Positions 17,640 through 45,463 are shown, counted from the stretch's first letter. The stretch is 64,000 bases of DNA from Candidatus Dormibacteria bacterium (GCA_050734425.1 JBOHUL010000083.1:6934-70933), one strand, 5' to 3'. The notes: generated by a model from the sequence alone, not told the origin. Numbers and translations: made by a program.

Positions 17640-17660
17640 CCACAACATGCGGCGTTGTGG
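17640..17660 (+). terminator. Hairpin CCACAAC-N7-GTTGTGG downstream of the sortase gene (weak; no U-tract)
   Basis: A 7-bp perfect stem read from the sequence, 43 nt after the sortase stop. Confidence 0.2.
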
Positions 17661-17755
17661 GGGCCTTGACGGGCGGTCGTCTGATATGCTGGCCCTCGGG
17701 TTGGCGAAAGATAACGGTGATCCCCGCGCACCTAGGCCGACCCAGGGAGCCCTGC

Positions 17756-18916
17756 TTGGACGTAGAACTGGGAAGAGGTAAGCGGGCTAGGCGGGCCTAC
17801 GGCTTCGACGAGGTGGCGCTGGTGCCGGGGAAGGTGACGATCAACCCCGAGGAGATCGACATCAGCCTCCGCCTGGGCGATGTGGAGCTGGCCCTCCCCA
17901 TCCTGGCGGCGGCGATGGACGGGGCCGTCGACGCCAACTTCGCCATCGAGATGGGCCGGCTCGGGGGGCTGGCGGTGCTCAACCTGGACGGGATCAACTG
18001 TCGCTACGACGACGTCCAGGCGGTATACGAGCAGGTCGCCGAGGCACCAAGGGAGCGGGTCAACGTCCTGCTCCAGGACCTCTACCGCGAGCCGGTCAAG
18101 GACCAGCTCATCGCCCAGCGGATCGAGGAGGTCAAGCGGGGCGGGGTCCTCTGCGCCGTCTCCAGCACCCCAAACGACGCCGAGCGGCGGCTGGGGATCA
18201 TCGGCGACGCCGGAGCCGACGTCTACTTCATCCAGGGCACGGTCCTGACCGCCCGCCACATCTCCCGTTCCTACCGTCAGCTCGACTTCAACCAGCTGGT
18301 GCGCAACTCCAAGCTGCCGGTGGTGGTGGGCAACTGCGTCGAGTACTACACCGCCCTGGAGCTGATGGGCACCGGGGTGGCGGGGATCCTGGTGGGGGTC
18401 GGCCCGGGCGCCGCCTGCACCACCCGCGGCGTCCTCGGGGTGGGGGTGCCCCAGGTCACCGCCACCGCCGACGTCGCCGCCGCCCGCCACGACCACCGGC
18501 GGGCCGGCGGTCAGCCGGTCACCGTGATCACCGACGGGGGCATGAGGGTCGGGGGCGATGTCACCAAGGCGCTGGCCTCGGGGGCAGACGGGGTCATGAT
18601 CGGTTCCGTGTTCGCCTCGGCCGAGGAGGCCCCCGGTCGGGGCAACCACTGGGGCATGGCCACACCCGACCCCAACCTGCCCCGGGGGACCCGGATCAAG
18701 GTGGGGGTGAAGGCGACCCTGAAGGAGCTGCTGCTGGGGCCGGCCCGGGTCGACGACGGCAGCCAGAACCTGGTCGGGGCGGTCAAGACGGCGATGGGCG
18801 TCTGTGGCGCCCGGACCATCGAGGAGTTCCAGCAGACCGAGCTCGTGATCGCGCCCGCGATCCTCACCGAGGGCAAGCTCTTTCAGCAGGCCCAGCAGGT
18901 GGGGATGGCCCGCTGA
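17756..18916 (+). CDS. guaB3: IMP dehydrogenase family protein GuaB3-like (no CBS insert)
   Basis: Within ORF 17657..18916 the TTG at 17756 (MDVELGRGKRARRAYGFDEVALVPGK) matches the GuaB3 N-terminus. The product is a TIM barrel with GVGPGAACTTR and GGMRVGGDVTKA motifs. Confidence 0.75.
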   Translation: MDVELGRGKRARRAYGFDEVALVPGKVTINPEEIDISLRLGDVELALPILAAAMDGAVDANFAIEMGRLGGLAVLNLDGINCRYDDVQAVYEQVAEAPRERVNVLLQDLYREPVKDQLIAQRIEEVKRGGVLCAVSSTPNDAERRLGIIGDAGADVYFIQGTVLTARHISRSYRQLDFNQLVRNSKLPVVVGNCVEYYTALELMGTGVAGILVGVGPGAACTTRGVLGVGVPQVTATADVAAARHDHRRAGGQPVTVITDGGMRVGGDVTKALASGADGVMIGSVFASAEEAPGRGNHWGMATPDPNLPRGTRIKVGVKATLKELLLGPARVDDGSQNLVGAVKTAMGVCGARTIEEFQQTELVIAPAILTEGKLFQQAQQVGMAR

Positions 18917-18997
18917 GCTGAGCCTGGGGAGGTCGTGACCGCCGCTGCCCTCCCCCTCCAGAACAGGGCGGAGACGGATCCCAGCTCCTCCCCCAGG

Positions 18998-20530
18998 ATG
19001 GAGACGGTGCTGGTTTTGGACTTCGGGTCTCAATACAGCCAGCTGATCGCGCGGCGGATCCGAGAGCTCCGCGTCTACTGCGAGCTGGTCCCGGGCACGG
19101 TGAGTGCCGAGGAGGTCCGCCGCCGCCGCCCCAGGGGCCTGGTGCTGAGCGGGGGGCCCTCCAGCGTCTACGACGAGGGGGCGCTGCACCCCGACCAAGG
19201 GATCTACGGTCTGGGGCTGCCCATCCTCGGCATCTGCTACGGAATGCAGCTCCTGGCCAGCGACTTGGGGGGACGGGTCCGCCCCTCGGCGCGGCGGGAG
19301 TACGGGCTGGCCTCGGTGGTGGTGGACCAGCCGGACGGAGTCTTCGAGGGTCTCCCCCGGGAGATGCCGGTCTGGATGAGCCACGGCGACGTCATCGAGG
19401 AGCTGCCAAAGGGATTCCACCCGGTGGCCCACACCCTCAACAGCCCGGTCGCGGCCATGGCCGGGCCCAAGGGCCGGGTCGGGATCCAGTTCCACCCCGA
19501 GGTGGCCCACACCCCCCAGGGCCGGGAGCTCTTGCGCAACTTCCTCTTCCGGACCTGCGGCTGCCGCGGCTCCTGGGAGCCGGCTGGCTTCGTGGAGACG
19601 GCTGTCGCCGAGATCCGCCAGAGCGTGGGCGACGAGCGGGTCATCTGCGCTTTGTCCGGGGGGGTGGACTCGGCGGTGGCGGCGACCCTGGTGCACCGCG
19701 CCGTCGGCGACCAGCTCAGCTGCGTCTTCGTTGACAACGGCCTGCTGCGCAGGGGCGAGGGCGACCGGGTTATCGCCGCCTTGGCCAGGAGCATGCGGAT
19801 GCGGATCCTGCGGGTCGAGGCCCAGGACCGCTTCCTGGGCGCGCTCCGCGGCGTCGTCGACCCCGAGGAGAAGCGCCGGATCGTGGGCCGGGAGTTCATC
19901 GGAGCCTTCGAGGACGAGGCCCGGCGCCTGGGGCCGGTCCCATTCCTGGCCCAGGGGACGCTCTACCCCGACGTGATCGAGAGCACGGCCAAGGACACCT
20001 TCGGGGCGCACAAGATCAAGACCCACCACAACGTCGGTGGCCTGCCGGAGCTGATGCACTTCTCCTTGGTGGAGCCGCTGCGCTACCTGTTCAAGGACGA
20101 GGTGCGGCAGGTGGGTCGGGCCCTGGGAATGCCGGACGAGGTGGTCCAGCGTCAGCCGTTCCCCGGCCCCGGGCTTGCGATCCGGATCATCGGCGAGGTG
20201 ACCCGGGAGCGCTTGGAGACGGTGAGGGCCGCCGACTGGGTGGTCATCGACGAGATCAAGCGCAGCGGCCTCTACCACCAGGTCTGGCAGAGCTTCGCCA
20301 TCCTCACCCCCATCAGCAGCGTGGGGGTGATGGGGGACTACCGCACCTACGCCAACGTGGTCGCGGTCCGCATCGTGGAATCCGACGACGGCATGACCGC
20401 CGACTGGGCCCGGGTGCCCTACGACGTGCTCTCCGACATCGGCCGGCGCATCGTCAACGAGGTCAAAGGGGTCAACCGGGTCGTCTACGACATCAGCAGC
20501 AAGCCGCCCTCGACGATCGAGTGGGAGTGA
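18998..20530 (+). CDS. guaA: GMP synthase (glutamine-hydrolysing)
   Basis: [20 protein letters not shown] is the GATase start, SGGVDS is the ATP-PPase P-loop, and the protein ends KPPSTIEWE. The GTG at 18935 is an alternative start giving a 21-aa extension. Confidence 0.9.
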
Positions 20531-21810
20531 GCTTCAGGCCAACCCCCGAGGCGCTGCACGTCTTGGTGGTGGGCGGGGGAGGCCGGGAGCACGCCCTGGC
20601 CTGGGCTTGCGGCCGCAGCCCCCTGGTGCGCGGGGTCAGCTGCGCCCCGGGCAACGCCGGCACGGCTGAGATCGGCGCCAACCACCAGGTCGCGCCGACC
20701 GACGCCCAGGCGCTGCTGGGGCTGGTCAAACGAGAGGCAGTTGACCTGGTGCTGCTGGGGCCGGACGCCGCTGTCGCCGCCGGCGTCGCCGACGAGCTGC
20801 GGGACGCCGAGGTCCCGGTCTTCGGGGCGGGCCGGGAGGCTGGCCGGCTGGAGACCAGCAAGGCCTTCGCCAAGGGGGTGATGGACCAGGCCGGGGTCAG
20901 GACCGCCCCCTGGGCCGCCTTTCGGGATCACGCAGAGGCGCTGGCCCACCTCCGGCGGCGCGGGGCCCCGGTGGTGGTGAAGGCGGACGGGCTGGCTCTG
21001 GGCAAGGGGGCTTTCGTCTGCGCCACTGAGGAGGAGGCCGAGGGGGTTCTGGAGGCCCTCATGGTCCGGCGCTCTCTGGGTGGGGCCGGGGCCACGGTGG
21101 TGATCGAGGACTGCTTGGAGGGGGAGGAGATCTCGCTCTTCGCTTTGACGGACGGCGACCGGGTGGTGATGCTGCCCCCGGCCAGGGACTACAAGCGGGC
21201 CTGGGTCAAGGACCAGGGGCCCAACACCGGGGGCATGGGCGCCTTCGCTCCGGCTCCGGAGAGTGACTGGGCGGGGGTCAACCGCCGGGCGCGGGAGGAG
21301 GTGGTGGAGCCGGTCCTGCGCGAGATGCGGCGGCGGGGCACCCCCTTCCAGGGCTGCCTCTACGTGGGGGGAATCCTGACCGCCCAGGGGCTGAAGGTTC
21401 TGGAGTTCAACGCCCGCTTCGGCGACCCTGAGGCCGAGGTGCTGCTGCCGCTGCTGCCGGACCCGGTGCCCCTCTTCTGGCAGACCGCCCGGGGAGGGCT
21501 GGAGCCCCAGGACCTGGGGGCGCCCTCGGGCTTCTGCCTGGGGGTGGTGGCGGTGCGCCGGCCCTACCCCGAGCCGATCGAGGGCGGCGGCGAGATCTCG
21601 GGACTGGAGACCGCCGCCGAGCTGGGCTGCCAGGTCTTCCAGATGGGGACCCGGGTGGGGCCGAGCTCCCGGCCCGAGGTTTCGGGGGGCAGGGTGCTGA
21701 TCTGCACCGCCACCGGCGGGGGCCTGGAATCGGCGCGGCAACTGGCCTACTCCGGGATCGAGGCGGTCTCGTTCGCCGGGATGAGCTACCGTCCCGACAT
21801 CGGGGCCTGA
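20521..21810 (+). CDS. purD: Phosphoribosylamine--glycine ligase
   Basis: [15 protein letters not shown] and an ATP-grasp domain. The ORF overlaps the guaA stop by 10 nt. Confidence 0.85.
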
Positions 21811-21842
21811 CGCGGCCCGATCCTCGTGCCGGCTCCAGGGAG

Positions 21843-22229
21843 GTGACGATGGCGGGCAGAACTCCTGAGAAGGGGGTCGGCGCGGAGACGGGGCGGGTGC
21901 GGGAGCTGCTCCGGGAGAAGCTGCGTCAGCTGGAGGCGGAGCGCTCGTCGCTCTCGGCGCCGCCGTCGCGGGGGGAGCAGGTCCAGTACGGCAAACGGGC
22001 CGGGGACCACGTGGCCGAGGTCGCCGACAGCCTGGCGAGGTCCCGCACCGCCGGGGAGTTGGAGGGCGTCGCGGCCCAGGTCCAGCGAGCGTTGGCCAAG
22101 CTGGATGAGGGCAGCTACGGCCGCTGTGACGCCTGCGGCGGGGCGATCCCCGCTGGGCGGCTGGAGGTGCTGCCCTGGGCTGGCCGCTGCGTCTCCTGCG
22201 CCGGCAGGCAGCGCCCGGCCCGCGGCTGA
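21843..22229 (+). CDS. DksA/TraR-family C4 zinc-finger protein
   Basis: 128 aa with a coiled-coil N-terminus and a C-terminal CDACGGAIPAGRLEVLPWAGRCVSCAG (CxxC-N17-CxxC) finger. Confidence 0.7.
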   Translation: MTMAGRTPEKGVGAETGRVRELLREKLRQLEAERSSLSAPPSRGEQVQYGKRAGDHVAEVADSLARSRTAGELEGVAAQVQRALAKLDEGSYGRCDACGGAIPAGRLEVLPWAGRCVSCAGRQRPARG

Positions 22230-22376
22230 CCACGCCCGCCGCACCGCCCTGGGGAGCTGCTCCGCTGGACGCCCGGGCCTCGTCGGCCTGCGGCCGGAAG
22301 AGGTGCAGCCAGGCGGGCTCGCCAGCGCCCGCGGGTTCCGGCACCGCTCCACCTCCTCCGGGTACCCTGGCAGTTC

Positions 22377-24206
22377 ATGGGCCCGGTCGGACTGGTCGAA
22401 TGCTGCCTGCGCCACGGGCAGCAGACACTTCTCCTGAGCCGGCTCCGGACCCGTCACCTGGTCCCCCTCTTGGAGCAGCTGGACGGCATCGGCTTCAAGG
22501 CGCTTGACGTCTTCGGCGGGTCGACCTTCGAGACCGGCCTCAGCCACCTGGGAGAGGATCCCTTCGAGCGCCTGCGAGCGCTGCGCCAGGCGACCAAGTC
22601 CCCTCTTCTGGGCCTGGTTCGCGGACAGGCCCTGGTCGGCTACCGGCCCCTGGCCGACGACGCCGTCAAGGCCTTCGTCGCCGAGGCCGCCACCTGCGGC
22701 CTCGACATCTTCCGCTGCTTCGACCCCCTCAACGACCCCCGAAACCTGACCTCCCTGGTGGAGGCGGTGCTGGCCGAGGGGAAGCATCCCGAGGGGGCGC
22801 TGGTCTACACCGAGAGCCCGGTGCACTCGCTGGAGAGCTTTCTGGACCTGGGGGCGGAGCTGGGGCGCTTGGGCTGCCGCAGTCTCTGCGTCTTCGACCC
22901 GGCGGGCCTCCTCGGCGCAGGCGGCGCCCGCGACCTGGTCCAGGGGCTGCTCCAGCGCACGGGGCTGCCGGTCACGGTCCACTGCGCCACCATCACCGGC
23001 CAGGCGCCCTTCGCCTACCTGGCCGCAGCCGAGGCCGGAGCCGAGGCCCTGGACGTATGCCTCTCGCCTCTCGCGGGAGGGGCCTCTTTGCCCAGCACCG
23101 AAGGGGTCTGCTCGGCCCTGCGGGGCACCGAGCTGGAGCCAAAGCTGGAGCAACGCCGCCTCCTGGGGGCGGCGGATGCGCTGGAAGCGGTACTGCCCTT
23201 GTATCAGGCCATCGCCGACCCCAGCGGCTGGCAGTACGACTCCTCGACCATGCGGACCCAGCTGGCGCCGTCGGTGGTGGAGCACCTCCACCACGAGTGC
23301 GCCTCCCAGGGCGCTCAGGAGAAGCTGGCCCAGGTGATGGAGGAGATCCCCCGGGTCCGCCGGGAGATGGGCCATCCGCCGCTGGTGACCCCCGTGGCCC
23401 AGGTGGTGGTGACCCAGGCGGTGGCCAACGTAGCCTCGGGCCAGCGCTACCTGACCGTGGCCCAGGAGGTCAAGGACTACTTCCTCGGCCTCTTCGGCCG
23501 ACCTCCGGGGCCCCTCGATCCCGAGATCCAGAAGCTCGTCATCGCCGGCGAGGCGCCGATCACAGTCCGCCCCGCCGAGGTCCTGGAGCCGGCCCTGGAG
23601 CCGGCCGGTCGGGCACTGAGGCGCCACGGCTTCGCGGAGCCCAGCCGGGCGCAGCTGCTGGACTTCCTCCTCTTTCCCCAGGCGACGCTGGCGCTGCTCC
23701 GGGGCCAGGCCAAGGTGGAGCGGCTCGAGGACGAGCCCGCGCCGGAGCCGCCGCCCACGGCCGTGGCGGAGCGGGAGTCTGACGCTGGCGATCTCTCCGA
23801 GCCGGTGGCCGCCGCCATCTCCCCGCCCCAGCCGCCCCCGGCGGCGGCGCCGGTCGCGGCGGCCGAGGTGGCGGCGCGGCGGGAGTTCTCGGTGGAGGTG
23901 GACGGCGAGGTTTTCCAGGTGGTGGTCAGTGCCACCGACGGAGGCGGCTTGGCGGCGGCCGCAGCCCCCCCGGCCGCGGCGCCGGCCCAGGCCGGCAGCG
24001 GGGTCAGGGCGCCGATGCAGGGGCTCATCGCCAGGATCGCGGTCAAGGTGGGAGACGCCGTCGAGCTCGGCCAGACGGTGGCGGTGCTGGAGGCGATGAA
24101 GATGCAGAACGACATCCCCAGCGACCGCGCCGGGCGCGTGGCCGCGGTCCTGGTCCAGGAGGGGCAGGTGGTGAGCCGGGGCGACGTGCTGGTCCAGGTC
24201 GCTTAG
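22377..24206 (+). CDS. OadA/PycB-like carboxyltransferase homolog with C-terminal biotinyl domain; catalytic residues apparently substituted
   Basis: Collinear with oxaloacetate decarboxylase alpha / pyruvate carboxylase subunit B (FRCFDPLNDPRN, LVRGQALVGYR, biotinyl EAMKMQN). The expected DTxxRD, KDMxG and HxH positions read ECCLRHGQQT, LCVFDPAGLL and VHCATITG. Confidence 0.7.
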   Translation: MGPVGLVECCLRHGQQTLLLSRLRTRHLVPLLEQLDGIGFKALDVFGGSTFETGLSHLGEDPFERLRALRQATKSPLLGLVRGQALVGYRPLADDAVKAFVAEAATCGLDIFRCFDPLNDPRNLTSLVEAVLAEGKHPEGALVYTESPVHSLESFLDLGAELGRLGCRSLCVFDPAGLLGAGGARDLVQGLLQRTGLPVTVHCATITGQAPFAYLAAAEAGAEALDVCLSPLAGGASLPSTEGVCSALRGTELEPKLEQRRLLGAADALEAVLPLYQAIADPSGWQYDSSTMRTQLAPSVVEHLHHECASQGAQEKLAQVMEEIPRVRREMGHPPLVTPVAQVVVTQAVANVASGQRYLTVAQEVKDYFLGLFGRPPGPLDPEIQKLVIAGEAPITVRPAEVLEPALEPAGRALRRHGFAEPSRAQLLDFLLFPQATLALLRGQAKVERLEDEPAPEPPPTAVAERESDAGDLSEPVAAAISPPQPPPAAAPVAAAEVAARREFSVEVDGEVFQVVVSATDGGGLAAAAAPPAAAPAQAGSGVRAPMQGLIARIAVKVGDAVELGQTVAVLEAMKMQNDIPSDRAGRVAAVLVQEGQVVSRGDVLVQVA

Positions 24207-24212
24207 ACCGAG

Positions 24213-25661
24213 GTGGCTCGCTTCGGGACGGTTCTGGTGGCCAACCGGGGCGAGATCGCGGCCCGGGTGATCCGCGGCTGCCGCGACCTGGGCCTGCGCA
24301 CGGTCGCGGTCTACTCCGAGGCCGACCGGGGTGCGCTCCACACCCGCCTCGCCGACGAGGCGGTGGGGATCGGTTCGGCGGCGCCCAGCGAGTCCTACCT
24401 CAATATCGGGCGGATCGTCGACGCCGCCCGCGGCAGCGGTGCCGAGGCGATCCACCCGGGCTACGGCTTCCTCTCCGAGAATCCGCGCCTGGCCGAGGCC
24501 TGCCGGGAGGCGGGCCTGGTCTTCGTCGGCCCCCCGCCCGAGGCCATGGCGGCCATGGGCGACAAGGTCCGGGCGCGGGAGCGGATGCGCAAGGCCGGGG
24601 TTCCGGTGGTGCCCGGGACCGGTGCCATCTCGGACGAGCAGGAGGCGGTCAGGGCCGCCCGGGAGATCGGCTTCCCCATCCTGGTCAAGGCCTCGGCCGG
24701 CGGCGGCGGCATCGGGATGAAGACGGCCGAGGACGAGGCCCAGCTGCTCCCCGCCATCCGCAGCTGCCAGGACTCGGCCAAGCGCTCCTTCGGCGACTCG
24801 CGGGTCTTCCTGGAGCATCTGGTCGCCGATCCCCGGCACATCGAGATCCAGGTGCTGGCCGACAGCCGCGGCCACACCCTCCATCTGGGGGAGCGTGAGT
24901 GCTCGATCCAGCGCCGGCACCAGAAGCTCTTCGAGGAGTGTCCCTCGACCGCACTCCGCCCGGAGCAGCGGGAACAGATGGGTCTGGCGGCGGTGAAGGC
25001 GGCCGAGGCCGTCGGCTACGTCAACGCGGGCACGGTGGAGTTCATCGAGTCCCACGGCTCCTTCTACTTCCTGGAGATGAACACCAGGCTCCAGGTGGAG
25101 CACCCGGTGACGGAGCTGGTGACCGGGATCGACCTGGTGGCGGCCCAGCTCGAGGTGGCCATGGGCGAGCCCTTGGACCTGACCCAGGAGCAGATCCACT
25201 GGCGCGGTTGGGCGATCGAGTGCCGGATCAACGCCGAGGACCCCTTCGAGGACTTTCGTCCCACCCCGGGGCGCGTCACCCGCTACCACGAGCCCACCGG
25301 CCCCGGGGTCCGGGTCGACAGCTCGCTTTCCGGACCGGGGCTGGTCAGCCCCTACTACGACCCCATGATCGCCAAGCTGGTCGTCTCGGGCCAGACCCGG
25401 CGGCAGGCGCTGGAGCGTGGTCGCCGGGCCCTCTACGAGTACGTGATCGGGGGCATCCCCACCAACATCCCCTTCCACGCCGCCCTGCTCCAGGACGAGG
25501 ACTTCGTCGGGGGGCGGCTGACCACGGCCTACATCCCCTCCCACCCCGAGCTCTTTGAGCGGGCCCGGGCCTGGCGCGACCAGCAGCCACAGCAGCTGGG
25601 TGGAGGCGGCGGTGCCCGACGGGTGGCAGCGGTGGCGGGGGCGCTGGCGGCGCTGCAGTAG
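24213..25661 (+). CDS. Biotin carboxylase (AccC/PycA-type)
   Basis: VLVANRGEIA, an ATP-grasp domain, GGGGIGMK and ECSIQRRHQKLFEE. The gene lies directly downstream of the carboxyltransferase-like gene. Confidence 0.85.
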   Translation: MARFGTVLVANRGEIAARVIRGCRDLGLRTVAVYSEADRGALHTRLADEAVGIGSAAPSESYLNIGRIVDAARGSGAEAIHPGYGFLSENPRLAEACREAGLVFVGPPPEAMAAMGDKVRARERMRKAGVPVVPGTGAISDEQEAVRAAREIGFPILVKASAGGGGIGMKTAEDEAQLLPAIRSCQDSAKRSFGDSRVFLEHLVADPRHIEIQVLADSRGHTLHLGERECSIQRRHQKLFEECPSTALRPEQREQMGLAAVKAAEAVGYVNAGTVEFIESHGSFYFLEMNTRLQVEHPVTELVTGIDLVAAQLEVAMGEPLDLTQEQIHWRGWAIECRINAEDPFEDFRPTPGRVTRYHEPTGPGVRVDSSLSGPGLVSPYYDPMIAKLVVSGQTRRQALERGRRALYEYVIGGIPTNIPFHAALLQDEDFVGGRLTTAYIPSHPELFERARAWRDQQPQQLGGGGGARRVAAVAGALAALQ

Positions 25662-25679
25662 GGGCGGCGACCCGCCGGC

Positions 25680-28611: not shown

Positions 28612-28950
28612 GGGCGCCGACCCCGGACCGGAAGCCCAAACGCTGAGAGCACGGTGGCGGTTACGAGCGAGGCGGAGGGCGGCAAGCTGATCCGCTCACG
28701 GTACCGGCCGCACCGGCTCCGGGCGGCCCCCAGGGGAGCCTCAAAGACCGGCTCCGACTCGGCGTCGCCGCCACCGACGAGAGCCACTGCCTCCCCCATG
28801 CCGCAAGATGAAAAACGTCCGGCGGGGCAACCGGGTTCCAGAGTTTCGGCGCGGGTCCCGTCCCAGCCGGGGCCGCCCCCGCCGCCACCTATACTCAGCC
28901 CAGGTGACCACGGCCCTGCCCCAGCAGCGACCACTGCCCGGCGGTCGACC

Positions 28951-30285
28951 ATGATCGACCGCTACGCCCCGCAGGAGTTGCGGGAGCTGTGGTCGGACGG
29001 GACCCGGCTCGGGCTCTGGCTCGAGGTCGAGCTGGCGGTCTGTGAGGCCAGGGCCGAGCTGGGCCAGCTGGACGGCGAGGAGCTGCCGGCCCTGCGCCGG
29101 GCCCGCCCCCCTAGCCCGGCCCGGGTGGCTGAGCTGGAGGCCGAGCAGGGCCACGACCTGGCCGCCTTTGTCAGCGCGGTCCAGGAGCAGCTGGGCCGGG
29201 AGGGGGGCCAGATCCACCTGGGCCTGACCAGCCAGGACGTGGTCGACACCGCTTTGGCGCTGCAGCTGGTCCGTGCCAGCCGCTACATCGCGGACAGGCT
29301 GGAGGTGCTCCTGGGGCGGTTGGCGGAACTGGCCCGGGCCCACCGGGCGACCCCAATGGCCGGACGGACCCACGGGATGCACGCCGAGCCGGTGACCTTC
29401 GGCTTCGTCCTGGCCAACCACTACGACGAGCTGCGCCGTTCCGCCGAGCGCTTCCACCGGGCCGCGGCCGAGGTCGAGGTGGGCAAGCTCTCGGGGACGG
29501 TCGGGACCCACTCCACCGTCAGCCCCGAGGTCGAGAGCCTGGCCCTATCCCGGCTGGGACTGGCCCCGGCCGCGATCTCGACCCAGGTGGTGGCCCGCGA
29601 CCGCCACGCGGCCTATCTTTGCGCCCTGGCCCTGCTCGGCGGGGTGTCCGAGCGCCTGGCGGTGACACTGAGGCAGCTGCAAAGGACTGAGGTCGCCGAG
29701 GTCCAAGAGCCATTCGGGTCGCGGCAGAAGGGGTCGTCGGCCATGCCTCACAAGCGCAACCCGGTCAAGCTGGAGCAGGTCTCGGGCCTGGCCCGGCTGC
29801 TGCGGGGCTGGGCAGTGGCAGGTCTGGAGGACATCGCCCTCTGGCAGGAGCGTGACATCTCCCACTCCTCGGTGGAGCGGGTGGCGCTGCCGGACGCCAC
29901 CATGGTCACCGGCCACATCCTCAAGACCCTAGAGGGGGTGCTCGCGGGCCTGGTCGTGGACGAGGCCCAGATGAGGGCCAACCTGGAGCGCCGGGGCGGC
30001 ATCGCCCGGAGCCAGTCGCTGCTCTTGGCGCTGATCGAGAGAGGGGAGCCGCGGGAGAGCGCCTACCGCCTGGTCCAGGCTCTGGCCCACGAGGCCGACC
30101 GCCCCGGCGGGGACTTCCGGGCCCTGGCGCTGGGAAGTCCCCGGGTGCGGGAGCGGCTGAGCCCGGCCGAGGTCGAGGCCTGCTTCGACCTGGGGCCGTC
30201 CCTGGCCGGTGTGGAGGAGAGCTTCCGGCGCCTGGGCCTGGGGCTGAAGCAGCCGGCTCTGCTGGAGGTGTCGGGCGGTGGCTGA
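28951..30285 (+). CDS. purB: Adenylosuccinate lyase
   Basis: Within ORF 28654..30285 the start is the ATG at 28951 (MIDRYAPQELRELWSD). The product has fumarate-lyase signature regions (GSSAMPHKRNP). Confidence 0.85.
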   Translation: MIDRYAPQELRELWSDGTRLGLWLEVELAVCEARAELGQLDGEELPALRRARPPSPARVAELEAEQGHDLAAFVSAVQEQLGREGGQIHLGLTSQDVVDTALALQLVRASRYIADRLEVLLGRLAELARAHRATPMAGRTHGMHAEPVTFGFVLANHYDELRRSAERFHRAAAEVEVGKLSGTVGTHSTVSPEVESLALSRLGLAPAAISTQVVARDRHAAYLCALALLGGVSERLAVTLRQLQRTEVAEVQEPFGSRQKGSSAMPHKRNPVKLEQVSGLARLLRGWAVAGLEDIALWQERDISHSSVERVALPDATMVTGHILKTLEGVLAGLVVDEAQMRANLERRGGIARSQSLLLALIERGEPRESAYRLVQALAHEADRPGGDFRALALGSPRVRERLSPAEVEACFDLGPSLAGVEESFRRLGLGLKQPALLEVSGGG

Positions 30286-31168
30286 GTCGCCAACCGCCCC
30301 GGAGTCGGTTGGGGATATCGAGCTACTGGAGCTGCCGCTCTTCCGCCGCGGCAAGGTTCGGGACACCTTCGATCTAGGAGACCGGCTCCTGATGGTCGCC
30401 ACCGACCGCATCTCCGCCTTCGACTGCGTCCTCCAAGACCTCATCCCCCACAAGGGGGTGGTGCTGACGCAGATGTCCAAGCACTGGTTCCGCAAGACCC
30501 AGGACCTGGTGCCCAACCACCTGCTCCCCGACGACCCTCCCTCGGTGCCCGGGCTGCCCCCCGCCTACTGGGAGCGGACGATGCTGGTGCGCCGGGCGGA
30601 GCGGGTCGACATTGAGTGCGTGGTTCGAGGACGGCTGGCGGGGAGCGGCTGGGTGGAGTACCAGGAGAGGGGAACCCTGGCGGACGAACCCCTGCCCCCT
30701 GGACTCGTCTTCGGCCAGGAGCTGCCGGATTTGCGCTTCACCCCCGCCACCAAGAACGATGAGGGCCACGACGAGAACATCAGCCGGTCCCGATTGGGGC
30801 AGTTGGTGGGAGTGGAGCTGGGGCGGCGCCTGGAGGAGCTGAGCCTGCGACTGTTCCGTCTGGCCCGGGTCCAGTGCCAGGACGCGGGCTTCATCCTGGT
30901 GGACAGCAAGTTCGAGTTCGGCTTCATCGAGGGCCAGCTCTGTCTCATCGACGAGGTGCTCACCCCCGACTCCTCTAGGCTCTGGGAGGTGGGAGCGGAG
31001 GCCGAGGCCCAGCCCCACGGTTTCGACAAGCAGCCGGTGCGGGACTATCTGATCTCAACAGGATGGGACCGGCGCCCGCCCGCACCCCGGCTGCCGCAGC
31101 AGCTGATCCAGGACACCAGCCGCCGCTACCAGGAGGCCGCCCGGCGGGTCACCAAGAGCGATTCCTAG
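30278..31168 (+). CDS. purC: Phosphoribosylaminoimidazole-succinocarboxamide synthase
   Basis: SAICAR synthetase motifs (GKVRDTFDLGDRLLMVATDRISAFD). GTG start overlapping the purB end. Confidence 0.85.
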   Translation: MAESPTAPESVGDIELLELPLFRRGKVRDTFDLGDRLLMVATDRISAFDCVLQDLIPHKGVVLTQMSKHWFRKTQDLVPNHLLPDDPPSVPGLPPAYWERTMLVRRAERVDIECVVRGRLAGSGWVEYQERGTLADEPLPPGLVFGQELPDLRFTPATKNDEGHDENISRSRLGQLVGVELGRRLEELSLRLFRLARVQCQDAGFILVDSKFEFGFIEGQLCLIDEVLTPDSSRLWEVGAEAEAQPHGFDKQPVRDYLISTGWDRRPPAPRLPQQLIQDTSRRYQEAARRVTKSDS

Positions 31169-31173
31169 CCGAC

Positions 31174-31416
31174 GTGGTGGTCCGCCTCAAGGAGACGGTC
31201 AACGATCCCCAGGGCCTGGTGGTGCAGGAGGGCCTGCACGCCCTGGGCCACCCGGGCGTGCTCTCGGCCCGGGTGGGGAAGTTCATCTCCCTGGAGCTGG
31301 AGGGGGAGGACGAGGAGGTGGTCCGCGAGGAGGTGGAGGAGATGTGCCGCCAGCTCCTCTGCAACGGGGTGGTCGAGGACTACCAGTTCAAGCTCCGCCG
31401 CAGCGAGGTCAGGTGA
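31174..31416 (+). CDS. purS: Phosphoribosylformylglycinamidine synthase subunit PurS
   Basis: 81 aa starting at the GTG at 31174 (MVVRLKETVNDPQGLVVQEGLHALGHPGV...). It lies within the larger ORF 31063..31416, and the stop overlaps the purQ start (GTGA). Confidence 0.8.
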   Translation: MVVRLKETVNDPQGLVVQEGLHALGHPGVLSARVGKFISLELEGEDEEVVREEVEEMCRQLLCNGVVEDYQFKLRRSEVR

Positions 31417-32108
31417 GCTCTCGGGTGGGGGTCGCCGTCTTCCCCGGGACCTGGAGCGACCGCGACTGCCTCTACGCGGCCCGGCTGCTGGGGGCCGATG
31501 CCGTGCCTTTGTGGCACCAGGACCGCGACCTCCAGGGCTCGGAACTGGTGATCCTGCCCGGCGGCTTCGCCTACGGCGACTACCTGAGGGCGGGCGCCGT
31601 CGCCCGCTTCGCCCCCTTGATGGAGGCGGTGGCGGACCACGCCAGGGCGGGCGGAGCGGTGCTTGGGATCTGCAACGGCTTCCAGATCCTCTGTGAGGCT
31701 GGGCTCTTGCCAGGGGCGCTCCTGCGCAACCAGAGCCTCCAGTTCCGCTGCCAGCCGACCACACTTCGGATCACGAGCCCCCGGGGACTCCTGGCGGGGC
31801 TGGCCGACGGGGAGCGGCTCACCCTGCCCATCTCCCACGGGGAGGGGCGCTACCACGCCTCCTTGGAGACCCTGGCCCAGCTTGAGGCCGAGGGTCGCGT
31901 GGCACTGCGGTACTGCGACGAGGGCGGGCGGCTGACCGCCGCGGCCAATCCCAACGGCTCTTTGGCAAACATCGCCGGCGTCCTCAACGAGACGGGCAAC
32001 GTGCTCGGGATGATGCCCCATCCGGAGCGGGCCTGCGAGCCCCTCCTGGGCTCCTCTGACGGCCTGCGCCTGCTCCGATCCGCTCTGCGTCAGCCCAGCC
32101 TCGCTTGA
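31413..32108 (+). CDS. purQ: Phosphoribosylformylglycinamidine synthase I (glutaminase subunit)
   Basis: GTG at 31413 (MSSRVGVAVFPGTWSDRDC). Class-I GATase with GICNGFQIL and MMPHPER. Confidence 0.85.
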   Translation: MSSRVGVAVFPGTWSDRDCLYAARLLGADAVPLWHQDRDLQGSELVILPGGFAYGDYLRAGAVARFAPLMEAVADHARAGGAVLGICNGFQILCEAGLLPGALLRNQSLQFRCQPTTLRITSPRGLLAGLADGERLTLPISHGEGRYHASLETLAQLEAEGRVALRYCDEGGRLTAAANPNGSLANIAGVLNETGNVLGMMPHPERACEPLLGSSDGLRLLRSALRQPSLA

Positions 32109-34369
32109 GTCCGGAGCCCGACTTCCGGGTCCCCGACCCCCTTGAGCTGCGCCGGCTGGGCCTGACCCGAGAGGAGTACCTGGCCGCGGCCCGGGAGCTT
32201 CGACGCCAACCCAATCCCCTGGAGCTGGGGATGCTGGCGGCGCTCTGGTCGGAGCACTGCAGCTACAAGACCTCCAAGCGGCTCTTGCGCCAGCTGCCGA
32301 GCCGCTCGCCGCGGGTGGTCCAGGGACCGGGCGAGAACGCTGGGGTGGTGGACCTGGGCGACGGGCTCTGCTGCTGCTTCAAGATCGAGTCTCACAACCA
32401 TCCCAGCGCGGTGGAACCGGTCCAGGGGGCGGCAACCGGGGTGGGGGGCATCCTCCGCGACGTCTTCGCCATGGGCGCCCGGCCGGTCGCCATCCTCGAC
32501 TCGATCTGGTTCGGCGAGCTGGAGCGACCGGAGCAGCGGCTGCGACTGCGGCGGGTGGTGGAAGGGGTGGGCGGCTACGGTAACTGCGTTGGTGTGGCCA
32601 CCGTAGGGGGGGAGACTCGCTTCCTTCCCGGCTACCGGGACAACTGCCTGGTCAACGCAATGTGCCTGGGGCTGGTGCGGACTGAGGAGGTGGTCCGGGC
32701 TCGCGCTGCCGGGAAGGACAACCCCGTCCTGCTGGTGGGCGCCGACACCGGCCGCGACGGCATCCACGGTGCCGCATTCGCTTCCGAGCGGCTGGAGCCC
32801 GGCGCCGCTCGGCGGCCCCAGGTCCAGATCGGCAACCCCTTCCTGGAGAAGTGCCTGCTCGAGGTGTGCCTGGAGCTGGCCCGCGACCCCGACCTGGTCG
32901 GCCTCCAGGACTGCGGCGCGGCCGGGCTCACCAGCAGCTGCGTCGAGATGGCGGGACGGGGTGGGGTGGGGCTGGAGCTCCAGGTGGACCGTGTCGCCCG
33001 CAGGGAGCGGGGCATGACCCCCTACGAGGTGATGCTGAGCGAGTCCCAGGAGCGCATGGTGCTGGTGGTGCGGCGGGGCAGCGAGGAGCGCTTCCAGGGC
33101 CGCTTCCGGCGTTGGGGCCTGCACAGCGACGTCATCGGGCGGGTGACCCAGGATGGGGTCCTCCGGGTGAGGGATGGGGAAGAGGAGGTCGCCGGGCTGC
33201 CGGTAGCGCTTTTGGTCTCGGGCTGTCCCGAGCGCCGGCCTCCGTCCCGGGCCCCGGAGCTGTCGTCGGTTCTGAGCGCTGATCCGCTCTTGGCCAAGCC
33301 GCCCTGGCCGGCGGCCGAGGCCTGGTTGCGGCTCCTGGCCTCGCCCAACTGTGGCGACAGTCGCTGGGTCTGGCGCCAGTACGACCACCAGGTCGGCGAC
33401 GACACCGTCCTGGGGCCGGGTGGCGACGCCGCCGTCCTGCGCCTCAAGGGGCGCCGCGACGGACTCGCCGTCACCGTCGACGGCGCCCACCGCTCGGCCG
33501 CCCTCGACCCGGCGAGGGGTACGGCCATCGCCGTGGCCGAGGCGGTCCGCAACCTGGCCTGCGTCGGGGCCGAGCCCCTGGCGCTGACCAACTGCCTCAA
33601 CTTCGCGGACCCCGAGAGGCCGGAGGTGATGTGGCAGCTGGAGCAGGCGGTGGCGGGTCTGGCCCAGGCCGCCCGCGCTCTGGGGATACCGGTGGTCAGC
33701 GGCAACGTCAGCCTCTACAACGAGTTCGGAGGGACCGGGATCCCGCCCACCCCCACCATCGGGGTGGTGGGCCAGATCCCCGAGCTGACCAGCGGCCCAC
33801 GGCTCGGCTTCCGGCTGGCGGGCGACCTGGTCGCCCTGGTGGGGAAGGTGGGGGCCGGGCCGGCGGGGGTGGAGCTCGGCGGTTCCGAGTACCAGCTCCT
33901 CAGCTCGGGCCGGCTGGAGGGGCGGCCTCCGGAGCTCGACCTGGAGCGGGAGCGGCAGGCGGCCCAGGCGGTCAGGACCGCAGTCGGCCGAGGCCTGCTC
34001 CAATCGGCGCACGACTGCTCCATGGGAGGGTTGGCGCTGGCGCTGGCCGAGTGCGCCATCCAGGGAGGGGTGGGGGCCAGCATCAAAAGTCCGCTCCCCC
34101 GTCCAGGGACGGCCGGGCCCTCCTGGGAGATGGGCCTGCTCTTCGGCGAGACCCAGGGTCGCTACCTGATCAGCTACGACGAGGGCGACCGGGAGCCTCT
34201 GGTCCGGCTGCTGGCGGAGCTCGGGGTTCCCCTGACCGAGCTGGGACGGGTTGGGGGCGAGGAGGTAGAGCTCCAGGGATTGGCCCGCCTGCCGCTGGGC
34301 GAGGCCCGGAGGGCGTGGGAGGGGGCGATCGCCGGCCAGATGGACCGGCCCGCCCAGCCTGGGGGCTGA
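32105..34369 (+). CDS. purL: Phosphoribosylformylglycinamidine synthase II
   Basis: 754 aa. The TTG start overlaps the purQ stop. SEHCSYKTSK and duplicated AIR-synthase-related domains. Confidence 0.9.
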   Translation: MSPEPDFRVPDPLELRRLGLTREEYLAAARELRRQPNPLELGMLAALWSEHCSYKTSKRLLRQLPSRSPRVVQGPGENAGVVDLGDGLCCCFKIESHNHPSAVEPVQGAATGVGGILRDVFAMGARPVAILDSIWFGELERPEQRLRLRRVVEGVGGYGNCVGVATVGGETRFLPGYRDNCLVNAMCLGLVRTEEVVRARAAGKDNPVLLVGADTGRDGIHGAAFASERLEPGAARRPQVQIGNPFLEKCLLEVCLELARDPDLVGLQDCGAAGLTSSCVEMAGRGGVGLELQVDRVARRERGMTPYEVMLSESQERMVLVVRRGSEERFQGRFRRWGLHSDVIGRVTQDGVLRVRDGEEEVAGLPVALLVSGCPERRPPSRAPELSSVLSADPLLAKPPWPAAEAWLRLLASPNCGDSRWVWRQYDHQVGDDTVLGPGGDAAVLRLKGRRDGLAVTVDGAHRSAALDPARGTAIAVAEAVRNLACVGAEPLALTNCLNFADPERPEVMWQLEQAVAGLAQAARALGIPVVSGNVSLYNEFGGTGIPPTPTIGVVGQIPELTSGPRLGFRLAGDLVALVGKVGAGPAGVELGGSEYQLLSSGRLEGRPPELDLERERQAAQAVRTAVGRGLLQSAHDCSMGGLALALAECAIQGGVGASIKSPLPRPGTAGPSWEMGLLFGETQGRYLISYDEGDREPLVRLLAELGVPLTELGRVGGEEVELQGLARLPLGEARRAWEGAIAGQMDRPAQPGG

Positions 34370-34375
34370 CTGACC

Positions 34376-35914: not shown

Positions 35915-35921
35915 GAGGGAA

Positions 35922-36959: not shown

Positions 36960-36970
36960 CCGCCACGCCG

Positions 36971-43909: not shown

Positions 43910-43913
<4 letters not shown>
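42597..43913 (+). CDS. aceA: Isocitrate lyase
   Basis: A strong SD (AAGAGGAGGAGGTGGCCA ATG). The ICL signature KKCGHLGGK is present, and the length and N-terminus fit aceA. Confidence 0.9.

Positions 43914-45463
<1,550 letters not shown>

What the first reader, a model, noticed from the sequence alone, without database searches (positions are those of the whole stretch)
22377..25661. Biotin carboxylase paired with a carboxyltransferase homolog whose catalytic/metal-ligand residues look substituted (a pseudo-PycB/OadA carrying an intact biotinyl domain)
The 609-aa product of 22377..24206 is collinear with oxaloacetate decarboxylase alpha and two-subunit pyruvate carboxylase subunit B. It shares blocks such as FRCFDPLNDPRN and LVRGQALVGYRPLADD and a C-terminal biotinyl domain with EAMKM. 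At the three positions where I recall these enzymes carrying the metal-binding Asp (..LRD.HQS), the carbamylated Lys (..KDM.G) and the H-x-H pair (LH.H.HATTG), this protein reads ECCLRHGQQT, LCVFDPAGLL and VTVHCATITG, so Asp, Lys and the second His are all lost. The adjacent biotin carboxylase (24213..25661) looks fully canonical. That combination suggests either a dedicated biotin-carrier or scaffold protein derived from a carboxyltransferase, or a carboxylase with non-canonical chemistry, with its carboxybiotin supplied by its own biotin carboxylase.
Basis: partly seen in the sequence, partly recalled or inferred. Interest (0 to 1): 0.7.

Follow-up and report, generated by a model that had tools for sequence, protein, structure and literature searches.

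The report
Remodelled pyruvate-carboxylase pair in purine operon
A soil-bacterium (Dormibacterota) gene pair annotated as two-subunit pyruvate carboxylase keeps its biotin-loading machinery but has lost every residue needed to carboxylate pyruvate. Across the phylum the pair sits next to purE, where the purine gene purK normally lies, so it may be a new biotin-dependent route for the carboxylation step of purine synthesis.

Summary
ORF 22377-24206 is a full-length PycB/OadA/5S homologue with an intact biotinyl domain (EAMKM, Lys575). The adjacent biotin carboxylase (24213-25661) is canonical.

This is not decay. The substitutions occur in every one of more than 160 relatives, all from Candidatus Dormibacterota. 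dN/dS in the 'dead' barrel is 0.07-0.10, 123 of 609 positions are at least 97% conserved, and new invariant residues appear (Gln15, Pro298, His303, Glu307).

The Thr loop was lost first, in the whole Dormibacterota family. The metal site was then lost at least twice.

In most species the genes form a tight purD-purE-pycB*-BC block (gaps of 8-50 nt) inside an otherwise complete purine cluster. That cluster has a class I PurE and no PurK within 2.2 Mb of fetched loci.

My best reading (about 0.35) is a biotin-dependent substitute for PurK. The rivals are a non-catalytic carrier or scaffold, or an unrelated acceptor. Whether PurK is absent genome-wide could not be tested and is the decisive check.

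The parts
22377..24206 (+). pycB* gene: 609-aa PycB/OadA/5S-like protein made of a CT-like TIM barrel, a funnel, a linker and a biotinyl domain
   Evidence: ORF and translation. Pfam and NCBIfam matches. Collinear with 5ks8_C over residues 3-608. AF2 model pLDDT 85, and the CT part superposes on 2nx9 and 1rqh at 1.7-1.9 A.
22377..23246 (+). CT-like TIM barrel (aa 1-290) with a remodelled active site. His13 (nt 22413-22415) replaces the metal Asp, Phe173 (22893-22895) replaces the carbamylated Lys, His202 (22980-22982) is kept, and Ala204 (22986-22988) replaces the second His. Arg12, Gln16 and Arg82 are kept.
   Evidence: Alignments to solved CT domains and family alignments. dN/dS 0.07-0.10.
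23247..23726 (+). Funnel / PYC_OADA domain (aa 291-450). The former catalytic Thr loop now reads APSVVEH, with Glu302 (nt 23280-23282) at the Thr position and the family-invariant His303 (23283-23285).
   Evidence: PF02436 match 3.6e-33. Loop alignment. Pro298, His303 and Glu307 are invariant or nearly so.
23997..24206 (+). Biotinyl (BCCP) domain (aa 541-609) with EAMKM. The predicted biotinyl-lysine is Lys575 (nt 24099-24101).
   Evidence: PF00364 match 7.8e-19. EAMKM is invariant in all relatives.
24213..25661 (+). Biotin carboxylase (PycA/AccC type, 482 aa), 6 nt downstream of pycB*
   Evidence: Three biotin carboxylase Pfam domains. 681 bits to NF006406. 552 bits to PDB 9eb7 and 494 bits to the 2-oxoglutarate carboxylase small subunit 7kbl. 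Lies within 60 nt of pycB* in 68 of 79 species loci.
20521..21810 (+). purD, the upstream member of the conserved purD-(purE)-pycB*-BC block. In this genome's clade purE is missing from the block.
   Evidence: GARS_N/A/C domains. Synteny.
21843..22229 (+). Small DksA/TraR-type zinc-finger ORF occupying the place where purE lies in other Dormibacterota
   Evidence: PF01258 match 1.4e-10. The same gene is present in L001. No purE remnant was found by tblastn.
28654..39135 (+). Rest of the purine cluster: purB, purC, purS, purQ, purL, purF, purM, purN, purH
   Evidence: Pfam matches. No purE or purK anywhere in the 64-kb window.
17657..20530 (+). guaB-like (IMPDH/GMP reductase family) and guaA genes, immediately upstream of purD on the same strand
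   Evidence: Pfam matches. Conserved upstream of purD across the phylum.

Best explanation
The pair descends from a two-subunit pyruvate carboxylase (PycA/PycB) and has changed its job.

Shown:
- The biotin carboxylase and the biotinyl domain are intact, so the complex should still use ATP and bicarbonate to make carboxybiotin on Lys575.
- The carboxyltransferase barrel keeps its fold and is under strong purifying selection.
- The barrel lacks the metal site and the catalytic Thr, so it cannot make oxaloacetate by the known mechanism.
- The family is phylum-wide in Dormibacterota. In most species it forms a tightly packed purD-purE-pycB*-BC block, in the slot that purK holds in purEKBCSQLFMNHD-type operons, next to a class I (N5-CAIR-using) PurE.

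Inferred: carboxybiotin swings into the remodelled, metal-free pocket (Arg12, Gln15, Gln16, Asp174, Thr207, His303). There it gives up CO2 to the amino group of aminoimidazole ribonucleotide (AIR), either directly or by releasing CO2 next to it. This would form N5-CAIR for PurE, making the pair a biotin-dependent functional replacement of PurK.

An amine acceptor needs no enolate-stabilising metal. That would explain why the metal site could be lost twice without loss of the gene.
For: - Loss of PC chemistry: Asp, carbamylated Lys, the second His and the catalytic Thr are all replaced. The roles of these residues in PC are documented: metal ligands in PMC9581989, and Thr882 as 'catalytically essential' in PMC5895798.
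- Retained function: dN/dS is 0.07-0.10 in the barrel, the same as in the BCCP domain. 123 of 609 positions are at least 97% conserved in 169 sequences. New invariant residues (Gln15, His27, Phe46, Pro298, His303, Glu307) have appeared, including in the former biotin/Thr loop. The fold is retained. The biotin carboxylase is canonical.
- Order of events: canonical enzymes, then subfamilies lacking the Thr loop but keeping the metal site, then metal-less forms. The metal-less crown group is monophyletic in 100/100 bootstraps. The metal-less L094 groups with metal-bearing clade M in 92/100 bootstraps, so the metal site was lost at least twice.
- Context in 78 informative, de-duplicated GTDB species loci: purE lies within 250 nt upstream in 44 and within 10 kb in 12 more. 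Typical spacing is a 4-nt purD/purE overlap, 8-53 nt from purE to pycB*, and 2-19 nt from pycB* to BC.
- The same block occurs in the P0127 clade from metagenomes. It also occurs in L094, where the downstream neighbours are entirely different.
- Across all loci (duplicates included), 114 proteins with the altered loop have purE within 10 kb upstream. None of the canonical-loop relatives with informative flanks has it (n=3).
- The cluster contains purD, E, B, C, S, Q, L, F, M, N and H, but no purK.
- All 62 PurE proteins at the locus are class I (SAHR motif).
- No PurK-like ORF was found in 2.2 Mb of loci, and the positive control was recovered.
- Class I PurE without PurK, with a possible alternative N5-CAIR-forming enzyme, is a recognised open case in archaea (PMC3261824).
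Against: - Genome-wide absence of PurK in Dormibacterota was not tested. Only about 10 kb either side of the locus could be read.
- In the window's own clade purE is not at the locus (15 species).
- In L010, L015, L037 and L008 the pair has no pur neighbours.
- In 12 species unrelated genes separate purE from pycB*, and in 11 they separate pycB* from BC. Co-transcription is therefore not obligatory.
- All cases belong to one phylum, so inherited gene order explains part of the association.
- The former ligand positions (13, 82, 173, 202, 204, 302) vary between clades. That fits relaxed constraint on the old site as well as it fits a new common substrate.
- The earliest-branching subfamilies still have a metal site, which an amine acceptor would not need.
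- No biochemical precedent exists, and no paper was found.
Confidence: 0.35

Rival explanations
1. Non-catalytic scaffold or carrier. The barrel is a pseudoenzyme that survives only as the structural core that docks the biotin carboxylase and presents the biotinyl domain. Carboxybiotin is consumed by a separate carboxyltransferase encoded elsewhere, for example an acyl-CoA carboxylase beta subunit.
For: All catalytic residues of the ancestral site are gone, and their positions now vary between clades (H/Q/A at 13, F/Y/L/H at 173, H/S at 202, R/G/A at 82). That looks like relaxed constraint on the old active site. The metal site was lost twice independently. In two-subunit PC the CT subunit forms the core that holds the BC subunits (the 5ks8 architecture is the top structural match). 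Another degenerate OadA-like biotinyl protein (L095) sits beside OAD_gamma and a biotin ligase, so carrier-type derivatives of this fold seem to exist elsewhere.
Against: The former biotin-binding/Thr loop has acquired new invariant residues (Pro298, His303, Glu307) rather than drifting. Pocket-lining Arg12, Gln15, Gln16, Asp174 and Thr207 are at least 98% conserved. dN/dS in the barrel is as low as in the BCCP domain. No partner carboxyltransferase is encoded in the window or in any of the 174 fetched loci (and gene tables). This model gives no reason for the persistent purE adjacency.
Confidence: 0.25
2. A biotin-dependent carboxylase (or decarboxylase) with a new acceptor unrelated to purines. 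In this reading the position beside purE is inherited gene order without functional meaning.
For: The pocket is conserved and remodelled, and BC and BCCP are intact. The pair also keeps other conserved but surely unrelated neighbours (glutamate dehydrogenase upstream, Big_5 protein and ECF sigma downstream). It occurs without pur genes in L010, L015 and L037, and directly after GDH in L008.
Against: 44 of 78 informative species loci keep purE within 250 nt, across clades whose PycB-like proteins are only about 42% identical. L094 keeps the block although its downstream neighbours have all changed. No candidate substrate-supplying genes are consistently adjacent.
Confidence: 0.2
3. It is still a pyruvate carboxylase or oxaloacetate decarboxylase subunit that works by a non-canonical, metal-independent mechanism, as the public annotation ('pyruvate carboxylase subunit B') implies.
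For: NCBIfam domain model NF006761 is passed (512.8 bits against a 402 cut-off). The pyruvate-contacting Arg12, Gln16 and Arg82 are present in the window protein. The BC is of PycA type.
Against: Three of four metal ligands and the essential Thr are missing. T882A alone abolishes CT activity in R. etli PC (PMC5895798). Every equivalog-level model fails by a wide margin (oadA 483 against 756; PycB 386 against 734 and 356 against 1182). Arg82 is lost in sister clades of the same family.
Confidence: 0.05
4. A decaying pseudogene, or an assembly or annotation artefact.
For: None beyond the missing catalytic residues.
Against: The 609-codon frame is intact and GC3 is 0.90. dN/dS is about 0.1. Full-length orthologues were seen in more than 160 sequences across independent genomes and metagenomes. 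The predicted fold is confident.
Confidence: 0.01

Closest known systems
Two-subunit pyruvate carboxylase PycA/PycB (Methylobacillus flagellatus, PDB 5ks8)
   Same: Same two-gene architecture: a separate BC subunit plus a CT-funnel-linker-BCCP subunit of about 600 aa. Best sequence match (3e-109, collinear over residues 3-608) and best structural match. The BC is of PycA type.
   Different: Asp becomes His13, carbamylated Lys becomes Phe173, the second His becomes Ala204, and the catalytic Ser/Thr becomes Glu302 within a rebuilt loop. Gene order is pycB* then BC. The pair is embedded in a purine operon next to purE.
Oxaloacetate decarboxylase alpha subunit OadA (Vibrio cholerae, 2nx9) and transcarboxylase 5S subunit (Propionibacterium shermanii, 1rqb/1rqh)
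   Same: The CT barrel and funnel superpose at 1.7-1.9 A (TM 0.89-0.94 of target). 34-36% identity. OadA also carries a C-terminal biotinyl domain.
   Different: Those enzymes have the complete D/KCX/HxH metal site and the PGGML(T/S)N loop. They work without a dedicated biotin carboxylase. No OAD beta or gamma subunit, or 12S/1.3S partner, lies near the window gene.
2-oxoglutarate carboxylase CfiA/CfiB (Hydrogenobacter thermophilus)
   Same: A PycAB-derived two-subunit biotin carboxylase that changed its acceptor. The window BC scores 494 bits against its small subunit (7kbl).
   Different: From my own knowledge, not tested here: it still carboxylates a 2-oxoacid and keeps the metal-dependent CT site. 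It is not associated with purine genes.
PurK (N5-CAIR synthetase) with class I PurE
   Same: ATP-grasp chemistry on bicarbonate, homologous to biotin carboxylase. Same operon slot, directly after purE and ahead of purB-purC. A class I PurE partner is present.
   Different: PurK is a single protein of about 355-380 aa that carboxylates AIR directly, without biotin. The window BC is not a PurK: PurK models score 29-37 bits against cut-offs of about 326, and E. coli PurK finds nothing in 2.2 Mb of loci.
Urea carboxylase (N-carboxylating biotin enzyme)
   Same: A precedent for a biotin-dependent carboxylase that carboxylates a nitrogen rather than an enolate carbon (established knowledge).
   Different: Its carboxyltransferase domain has an unrelated fold. 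Only the BC and BCCP parts are homologous (TIGR02712 partial matches).

Membership tests
PycB / OadA / 5S carboxyltransferase family (DRE-TIM barrel with carbamylated Lys) | Collinear CT TIM barrel plus funnel (HMGL-like and PYC_OADA domains) | tested here: met
   PF02436 at 115 bits and PF00682 at 33 bits (just above the cut-off of 29). 370 bits to 5ks8_C. AF2 model superposes on 2nx9 and 1rqh at 1.7-1.9 A.
PycB / OadA / 5S carboxyltransferase family (DRE-TIM barrel with carbamylated Lys) | Divalent-metal site made of Asp (RDxHQS), carbamylated Lys (KDM) and His-x-His | tested here: not met
   His13, Phe173 and Ala204 replace three of the four ligands; only His202 remains. The same holds in all crown-group relatives.
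PycB / OadA / 5S carboxyltransferase family (DRE-TIM barrel with carbamylated Lys) | Catalytic Thr/Ser in the PGG(M/Q)x(T/S)N loop (Thr882 of R. etli PC) | tested here: not met
   The loop reads APSVVEH, with Glu302 at the Thr position. It is altered in every Dormibacterota subfamily, including those that keep the metal site.
PycB / OadA / 5S carboxyltransferase family (DRE-TIM barrel with carbamylated Lys) | Substrate-carboxylate contacts (Arg of RD, Gln of HQS, Arg of RGQ) | tested here: met
   Arg12, Gln16 and Arg82 are present in the window protein. Arg82 is Gly or Ala in the L004-type sister clade.
PycB / OadA / 5S carboxyltransferase family (DRE-TIM barrel with carbamylated Lys) | Score above curated equivalog thresholds (NCBIfam PycB / OadA) | tested here: not met
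   TIGR01108 scores 483 against 756.5, NF010644 scores 386 against 734, NF010645 scores 356 against 1182, and NF010643 scores 425 against 892. Only the domain-type model NF006761 passes (513 against 402).
PycB / OadA / 5S carboxyltransferase family (DRE-TIM barrel with carbamylated Lys) | Pyruvate carboxylation or oxaloacetate decarboxylation activity | not testable with these tools
   Needs an enzyme assay.
Biotin carboxyl carrier domain | Biotinyl domain fold with the (A/V)MKM biotinylation motif | tested here: met
   PF00364 match 7.8e-19. EAMKM is invariant in all relatives. The confident beta-sandwich spans residues 541-609. Actual biotinylation was not tested.
Biotin carboxylase (AccC / PycA) | Three-domain ATP-grasp architecture with the catalytic motifs (Gly-rich loop, Lys238, Glu288/Asn290/Arg292/Glu296 and Arg338 equivalents) | tested here: met
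   Pfam domains PF00289, PF02786 and PF02785. 681 bits to NF006406 and 635 bits to NF006367, which exceeds its 597 cut-off. The motifs are visible in the translation and in the alignment to 9eb7. Residue numbering is from my own knowledge of E. coli BC.
PurK (N5-CAIR synthetase) | Sequence membership in the PurK family | tested here: not met
   PurK models NF004680 and NF004679 score 37 and 29 bits against cut-offs of about 326. E. coli PurK finds no ORF in the window or in 174 loci. The claim is functional analogy, not membership.
PurK (N5-CAIR synthetase) | Operon position next to a class I purE, and absence of another PurK in the genome | tested here: inconclusive
   The position is met in 44-56 of 78 informative species loci, but not in the window's own clade. 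PurE is class I in 62 of 62 cases. Genome-wide absence of PurK could not be examined.

The most novel reading that the evidence does not exclude
Dormibacterota lack PurK. They make N5-CAIR (or CAIR) with a biotin-dependent system: a PycA-type biotin carboxylase loads CO2 onto the biotinyl domain of a PycB-derived protein, and the metal-free, Thr-less barrel of that protein delivers it to aminoimidazole ribonucleotide for the neighbouring class I PurE. This would be the first biotin-dependent step in de novo purine biosynthesis, and a new substrate class (an aminoimidazole nitrogen) for the pyruvate-carboxylase-type carboxyltransferase fold.
Probability: 0.35. Interest if true: 0.9.

Novelty: new variant of a known kind. 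Interest (0 to 1): 0.7.

Why it matters
- Annotation. Automated pipelines name this protein 'pyruvate carboxylase subunit B' in every Dormibacterota genome, because one domain-level model passes. Metabolic reconstructions of this abundant, uncultured soil phylum therefore credit it with an anaplerotic pyruvate carboxylase that the sequence cannot support.
- Enzyme evolution. The family is a clean natural series: canonical enzyme, then loss of the catalytic Thr loop, then two independent losses of the metal site. All the while it stays under strong selection with an intact ATP-driven biotin-loading module. That makes it a good system for studying how a biotin enzyme changes acceptor or becomes a carrier.
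- Pathway biology. If the purE linkage is functional, it fills the 'class I PurE without PurK' gap with a non-orthologous, biotin-dependent solution. It would also add a new reaction to the short list of biotin-dependent carboxylations.
- Testability. The hypothesis can be checked cheaply by a genome scan for PurK and by E. coli purK complementation.

Tried and rejected
- Shifted ligands. I looked for Asp, Lys or HxH at nearby positions in the HMMER alignments to three solved CT domains. None were found.
- Paralogue hypothesis. I expected the 48-55% identical Dormibacterota hits to be intact PycB paralogues. They are degenerate too.
- purE and purK in the window. tblastn with Dormibacterota PurE, E. 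coli PurE and PurK, and the BC found nothing.
- Locating purE of the window's clade, and any PurK beside it. Two PurE homologue searches and context look-ups returned only PurE copies from the other clades. This remains unresolved.
- Genome-wide PurK presence.
- The third gene after BC in some clades (209-247 aa). It gives only weak methyltransferase-like hits and is absent from the window, so I judged it not part of the core system.
- Regulatory RNA. There are no Rfam matches in the window, hence no purine or ZTP riboswitch. The call on related loci exceeded the size limit.
- Promoter and terminator scan of 20400-28800. Uninformative in this 72% GC DNA.
- Literature. Searches for a biotin-dependent N5-CAIR/AIR carboxylase, for pseudo-PycB and for Dormibacterota pyruvate carboxylase found nothing relevant.
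- 'Directly adjacent to purB'. I first thought clade M had BC immediately followed by purB. Measured gaps are 3-4 kb, so purB starts a separate unit.
- Other carboxylase parts in the window. Pfam scans of 46 window ORFs found no carboxyltransferase, AccB or OAD subunit.

Full report
**1. The observation**

The window is about 70% GC. ORF 22377-24206 (609 aa) and ORF 24213-25661 (482 aa) lie on the + strand, 6 nt apart.

The first protein matches Pfam PYC_OADA (115 bits), Biotin_lipoyl (68 bits) and, only just, HMGL-like (33 bits against a cut-off of 29). The second has the three biotin-carboxylase domains.

Against solved structures the first protein is collinear over residues 3-608 with the beta subunit of the two-subunit pyruvate carboxylase of Methylobacillus flagellatus (5ks8_C, 3e-109). 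Its CT part matches V. cholerae OadA (2nx9, 4e-88) and the transcarboxylase 5S subunit (1rqb, 2e-81).

These alignments fix the register:

| Canonical motif | Window protein | Change |
|---|---|---|
| LRD(G/A)HQS | LRHGQQT | Metal Asp becomes His13; His becomes Gln15 |
| (I/L)KDMA | VFDPAG | Carbamylated Lys becomes Phe173; Met becomes Pro175 |
| LH(A/C)H | VHCA | His202 kept; second His becomes Ala204 |
| PGGM(I/L)(S/T)N | APSVVEH | Catalytic Thr/Ser becomes Glu302 |

The ligand set of PC (Asp, carboxy-Lys, two His) is described in PMC9581989. Thr882 of R. etli PC is called 'catalytically essential', and T882A is inactive, in PMC5895798.

Arg12, Gln16 and Arg82 (substrate contacts in PC) and the EAMKM biotinylation motif (Lys575) are present. 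The biotin carboxylase shows all canonical motifs and scores 552 bits against a solved BC.

**2. It is a conserved family, not decay**

The 120 best homologues among 5.8 billion proteins are nearly all named Candidatus Dormibacterota/Dormibacteria. They are 48-100% identical, and every one carries substitutions at the same positions: H/Q/A at 13, F/Y/L/H at 173, H/S at 202, A/S at 204. EAMKM is invariant.

- In 169 non-redundant 'crown' sequences, 123 of 609 positions are at least 97% conserved.
- These include pocket-lining Arg12, Gln16, Asp174, Thr207 and Gly208.
- They also include residues that differ from the canonical enzymes: Gln15, His27, Phe46, Pro298, His303 and Glu307.
- Nei-Gojobori dN/dS between orthologues is 0.07-0.10 in the barrel, 0.05-0.16 in the funnel and 0.04-0.19 in the biotinyl domain.
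- An AlphaFold2 model is confident (pLDDT 85). Its CT part superposes on OadA and 5S at 1.7-1.9 A. The former metal loop (residues 14-19) is the only low-confidence part of the barrel.

NCBIfam explains the public name. Only the domain-level model 'pyruvate carboxylase subunit B' passes (513 against 402), while every equivalog model fails by a factor of about two.

**3. Evolutionary series**

A search of 1.84 billion cluster representatives shows the nearest relatives with full D/K/HxH sites at 45% identity or less. Eighty GTDB species loci and eighty metagenome loci resolve the following Dormibacterota subfamilies.

| Subfamily | Metal ligands | Former Thr loop |
|---|---|---|
| M2 (L084/L085) | D, K, HxH, with KDM | IP(E/A)WML |
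| P0127 clade | D, E, HxH (Glu replaces the carbamylated Lys) | LPAPVLA |
| Clade M | D, K, HxH, with KDT | PG(F/L/Q)MLED |
| L094 | E, V, H, S | (not tabulated) |
| Metal-less crown (contains the window) | lost, variable | as in the window |

All of them lack the canonical Thr loop. Canonical PGGM(L/I)(S/T)N proteins found in the same scans come from other lineages (Dehalococcoidales, an archaeon, low-GC contigs).

In bootstrapped neighbour-joining trees:
- the crown is monophyletic (100/100);
- L094 groups with metal-bearing clade M (92/100);
- crown, M and L094 together form a clade (82/100).

So the Thr loop changed first, and the metal site was then lost at least twice. Whatever the family does, it stopped needing the metal after the first change.

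**4. Genomic context**

In the window the order is: guaB-like, guaA, purD, a small DksA-type zinc-finger ORF, pycB*, BC. Next come a Big_5-domain protein and an ECF sigma factor on the other strand. Then follow purB, purC, purS, purQ, purL, purF, purM, purN and purH. That is every de novo purine gene except purE and purK, neither of which is in the 64 kb.

In relatives purE is there. Examples are L004, L005 and L006. Of 78 informative, de-duplicated GTDB species loci:

| Context upstream of pycB* | Loci |
|---|---|
| purE within 250 nt | 44 |
| purE 0.25-10 kb upstream, behind inserted genes | 12 |
| purD but no purE (exactly the window's clade) | 15 |
| neither purD nor purE | 7 |

Typical spacing is a 4-nt purD/purE overlap, 8-53 nt from purE to pycB*, and 2-19 nt from pycB* to BC. 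BC follows pycB* within 60 nt in 68 of 79 loci.

The P0127 clade from metagenomes has the same guaB-guaA-purD-purE-pycB'-BC order. L094 keeps purD-purE-(8 nt)-pycB'-BC although everything downstream is different.

Over all loci, 114 altered-loop proteins have purE upstream. None of the canonical-loop relatives with informative flanks does, though that group has only three members.

All 62 PurE proteins at the locus have the class I SAHR signature. From established knowledge, class I PurE uses N5-CAIR, which PurK normally makes. E. coli PurK finds no ORF in 2.2 Mb of fetched Dormibacterota loci, while the positive control scores 818 bits.

The pair therefore occupies the slot after purE that purK holds in Bacillus-type purEKBCSQLFMNHD operons (established knowledge). 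The gene whose product it could replace is the only one missing from the cluster.

**5. Mechanism**

Shown: an intact BC and biotinyl carrier; a conserved but metal-less and Thr-less barrel; conserved adjacency to class I purE.

Inferred:
- BC makes carboxybiotin.
- The biotinyl-lysine visits the remodelled pocket.
- CO2 is passed, or released next to, the exocyclic amine of AIR, giving N5-CAIR for PurE.

Supporting background from established knowledge: PurK and BC are homologous ATP-grasp enzymes that both activate bicarbonate through carboxyphosphate. N5-CAIR forms spontaneously from AIR and CO2, and purK mutants are rescued by high CO2. PMC3261824 discusses class I PurE without PurK and allows for 'an alternate enzyme'.

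An amine acceptor needs no metal-stabilised enolate. That would rationalise the repeated loss of the metal site. The invariant His303, next to the old Thr position, could protonate the biotin enolate. I put this at about 0.35.

**6. Why not higher**

- I could not test whether PurK is absent genome-wide. This is the single decisive fact.
- The window's own clade has moved purE elsewhere, and I could not find where.
- Several lineages have the pair without pur neighbours (L010, L015, L037, L008) or with unrelated genes inserted.
- All cases are within one phylum. The equally unrelated Big_5/sigma pair is also conserved nearby, so part of the synteny is simple inheritance.
- The old ligand positions vary among clades, and Arg82 is lost in one clade. 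That fits a non-catalytic barrel as well.

The rivals are:
- a scaffold or carrier feeding a carboxyltransferase encoded elsewhere (0.25);
- a new acceptor unrelated to purines (0.2);
- residual PC/OAD activity (0.05);
- a pseudogene or artefact (about 0.01).

The remaining 0.14 is left to explanations not listed.

**7. Comparison with known systems**

It works like a two-subunit biotin carboxylase, and by descent it is a PycAB derivative. It fails the defining catalytic features of the PycB/OadA/5S family (metal site, Thr loop, equivalog scores), so it should not be filed as a pyruvate carboxylase subunit B.

It is not a PurK by sequence; the proposal is non-orthologous replacement. I found no paper describing a biotin-dependent AIR/N5-CAIR carboxylation, a pseudo-PycB, or this Dormibacterota feature.

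**8. Verdict**

This is a real, phylum-wide, strongly selected variant of the pyruvate-carboxylase system with an abolished ancestral active site. It is misannotated in public genomes and has a specific, cheaply testable and potentially important hypothesis attached.

- Interest: 0.7.
- Novelty: new variant of a known kind. It would approach categorically new chemistry for purine synthesis if the PurK-replacement reading holds.

Noticed in passing
window 25680-28611 (- strand): A 788-aa Big_5 (bacterial Ig-like) domain protein and an ECF-type sigma-70 factor sit on the opposite strand, between the BC gene and purB. They split the purine cluster. The same insertion is conserved in most Dormibacterota loci.
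   Followed up: partly
window 17657-18916: The gene upstream of guaA is an IMPDH/GMP-reductase-family protein of about 386-419 aa. Its Pfam match skips the CBS-pair region (profile 2-248 of 345). It is not a standard GuaB, and it is conserved at the head of the guaA-purD block across the phylum.
   Followed up: no
L095:8829-11815: In a 59% GC genome (2.37-Mb contig) another OadA/PycB-like biotinyl protein has a fully degenerate site (S, A, T, S at the ligand positions). It lies directly after a biotin-protein ligase gene and an OAD_gamma gene. This is an independent 'dead-CT plus BCCP' derivative in a decarboxylase-like context.
   Followed up: no
L096-L143 (e.g. L099:6001-7788): A Dormibacterota subfamily (P0127 clade) has Glu in place of the carbamylated Lys (IEDVAG) while keeping Asp and HxH. 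This may be a metal site rebuilt without lysine carbamylation.
   Followed up: partly
L003:5152-5658, also L028 and L032: Five PurE proteins at this locus read AAALPG instead of the near-universal AAHLPG. The conserved His of the 70s loop is replaced by Ala, while the catalytic SAHR motif is intact.
   Followed up: no
L003:19825-21765: A 646-aa gene product combines SAICAR synthetase (PurC) and the PurQ-type glutamine amidotransferase domain. This is an apparent purC-(purS)-purQ fusion, or a gene-calling merge.
   Followed up: no
L003:13270-13932, L004:13246-13896, L005:11792-12535, L010:11278-11907: A 209-247-aa protein with only weak class I methyltransferase similarity is translationally coupled to the BC gene (gaps of -4 to +14 nt) in several clades. 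It is absent from the window's clade.
   Followed up: partly
window 42597-45463: Isocitrate lyase and malate synthase genes are adjacent (glyoxylate shunt). They give this genome an anaplerotic route that does not depend on a pyruvate carboxylase.
   Followed up: no
window 46367-48370: A 667-aa protein with two radical-SAM domains and a CofH/MqnC C-terminal region looks like a fused FO synthase (FbiC) of F420 biosynthesis.
   Followed up: no
window 22413-22433 (residues 14-19 of PycB*): The loop after strand 1 (GQQTLL) is invariant in the family, yet it is the only part of the barrel that AlphaFold2 predicts with pLDDT below 50. It may be a mobile or ligand-ordered active-site loop.
   Followed up: no
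L014, L023, L026, L046, L049, L080 (record titles): Several GTDB genome records carrying this Dormibacterota-type locus are titled Micrarchaeaceae archaeon, Nanopelagicaceae, Saccharimonadales, Binatia or Acidiferrales.
   Followed up: no
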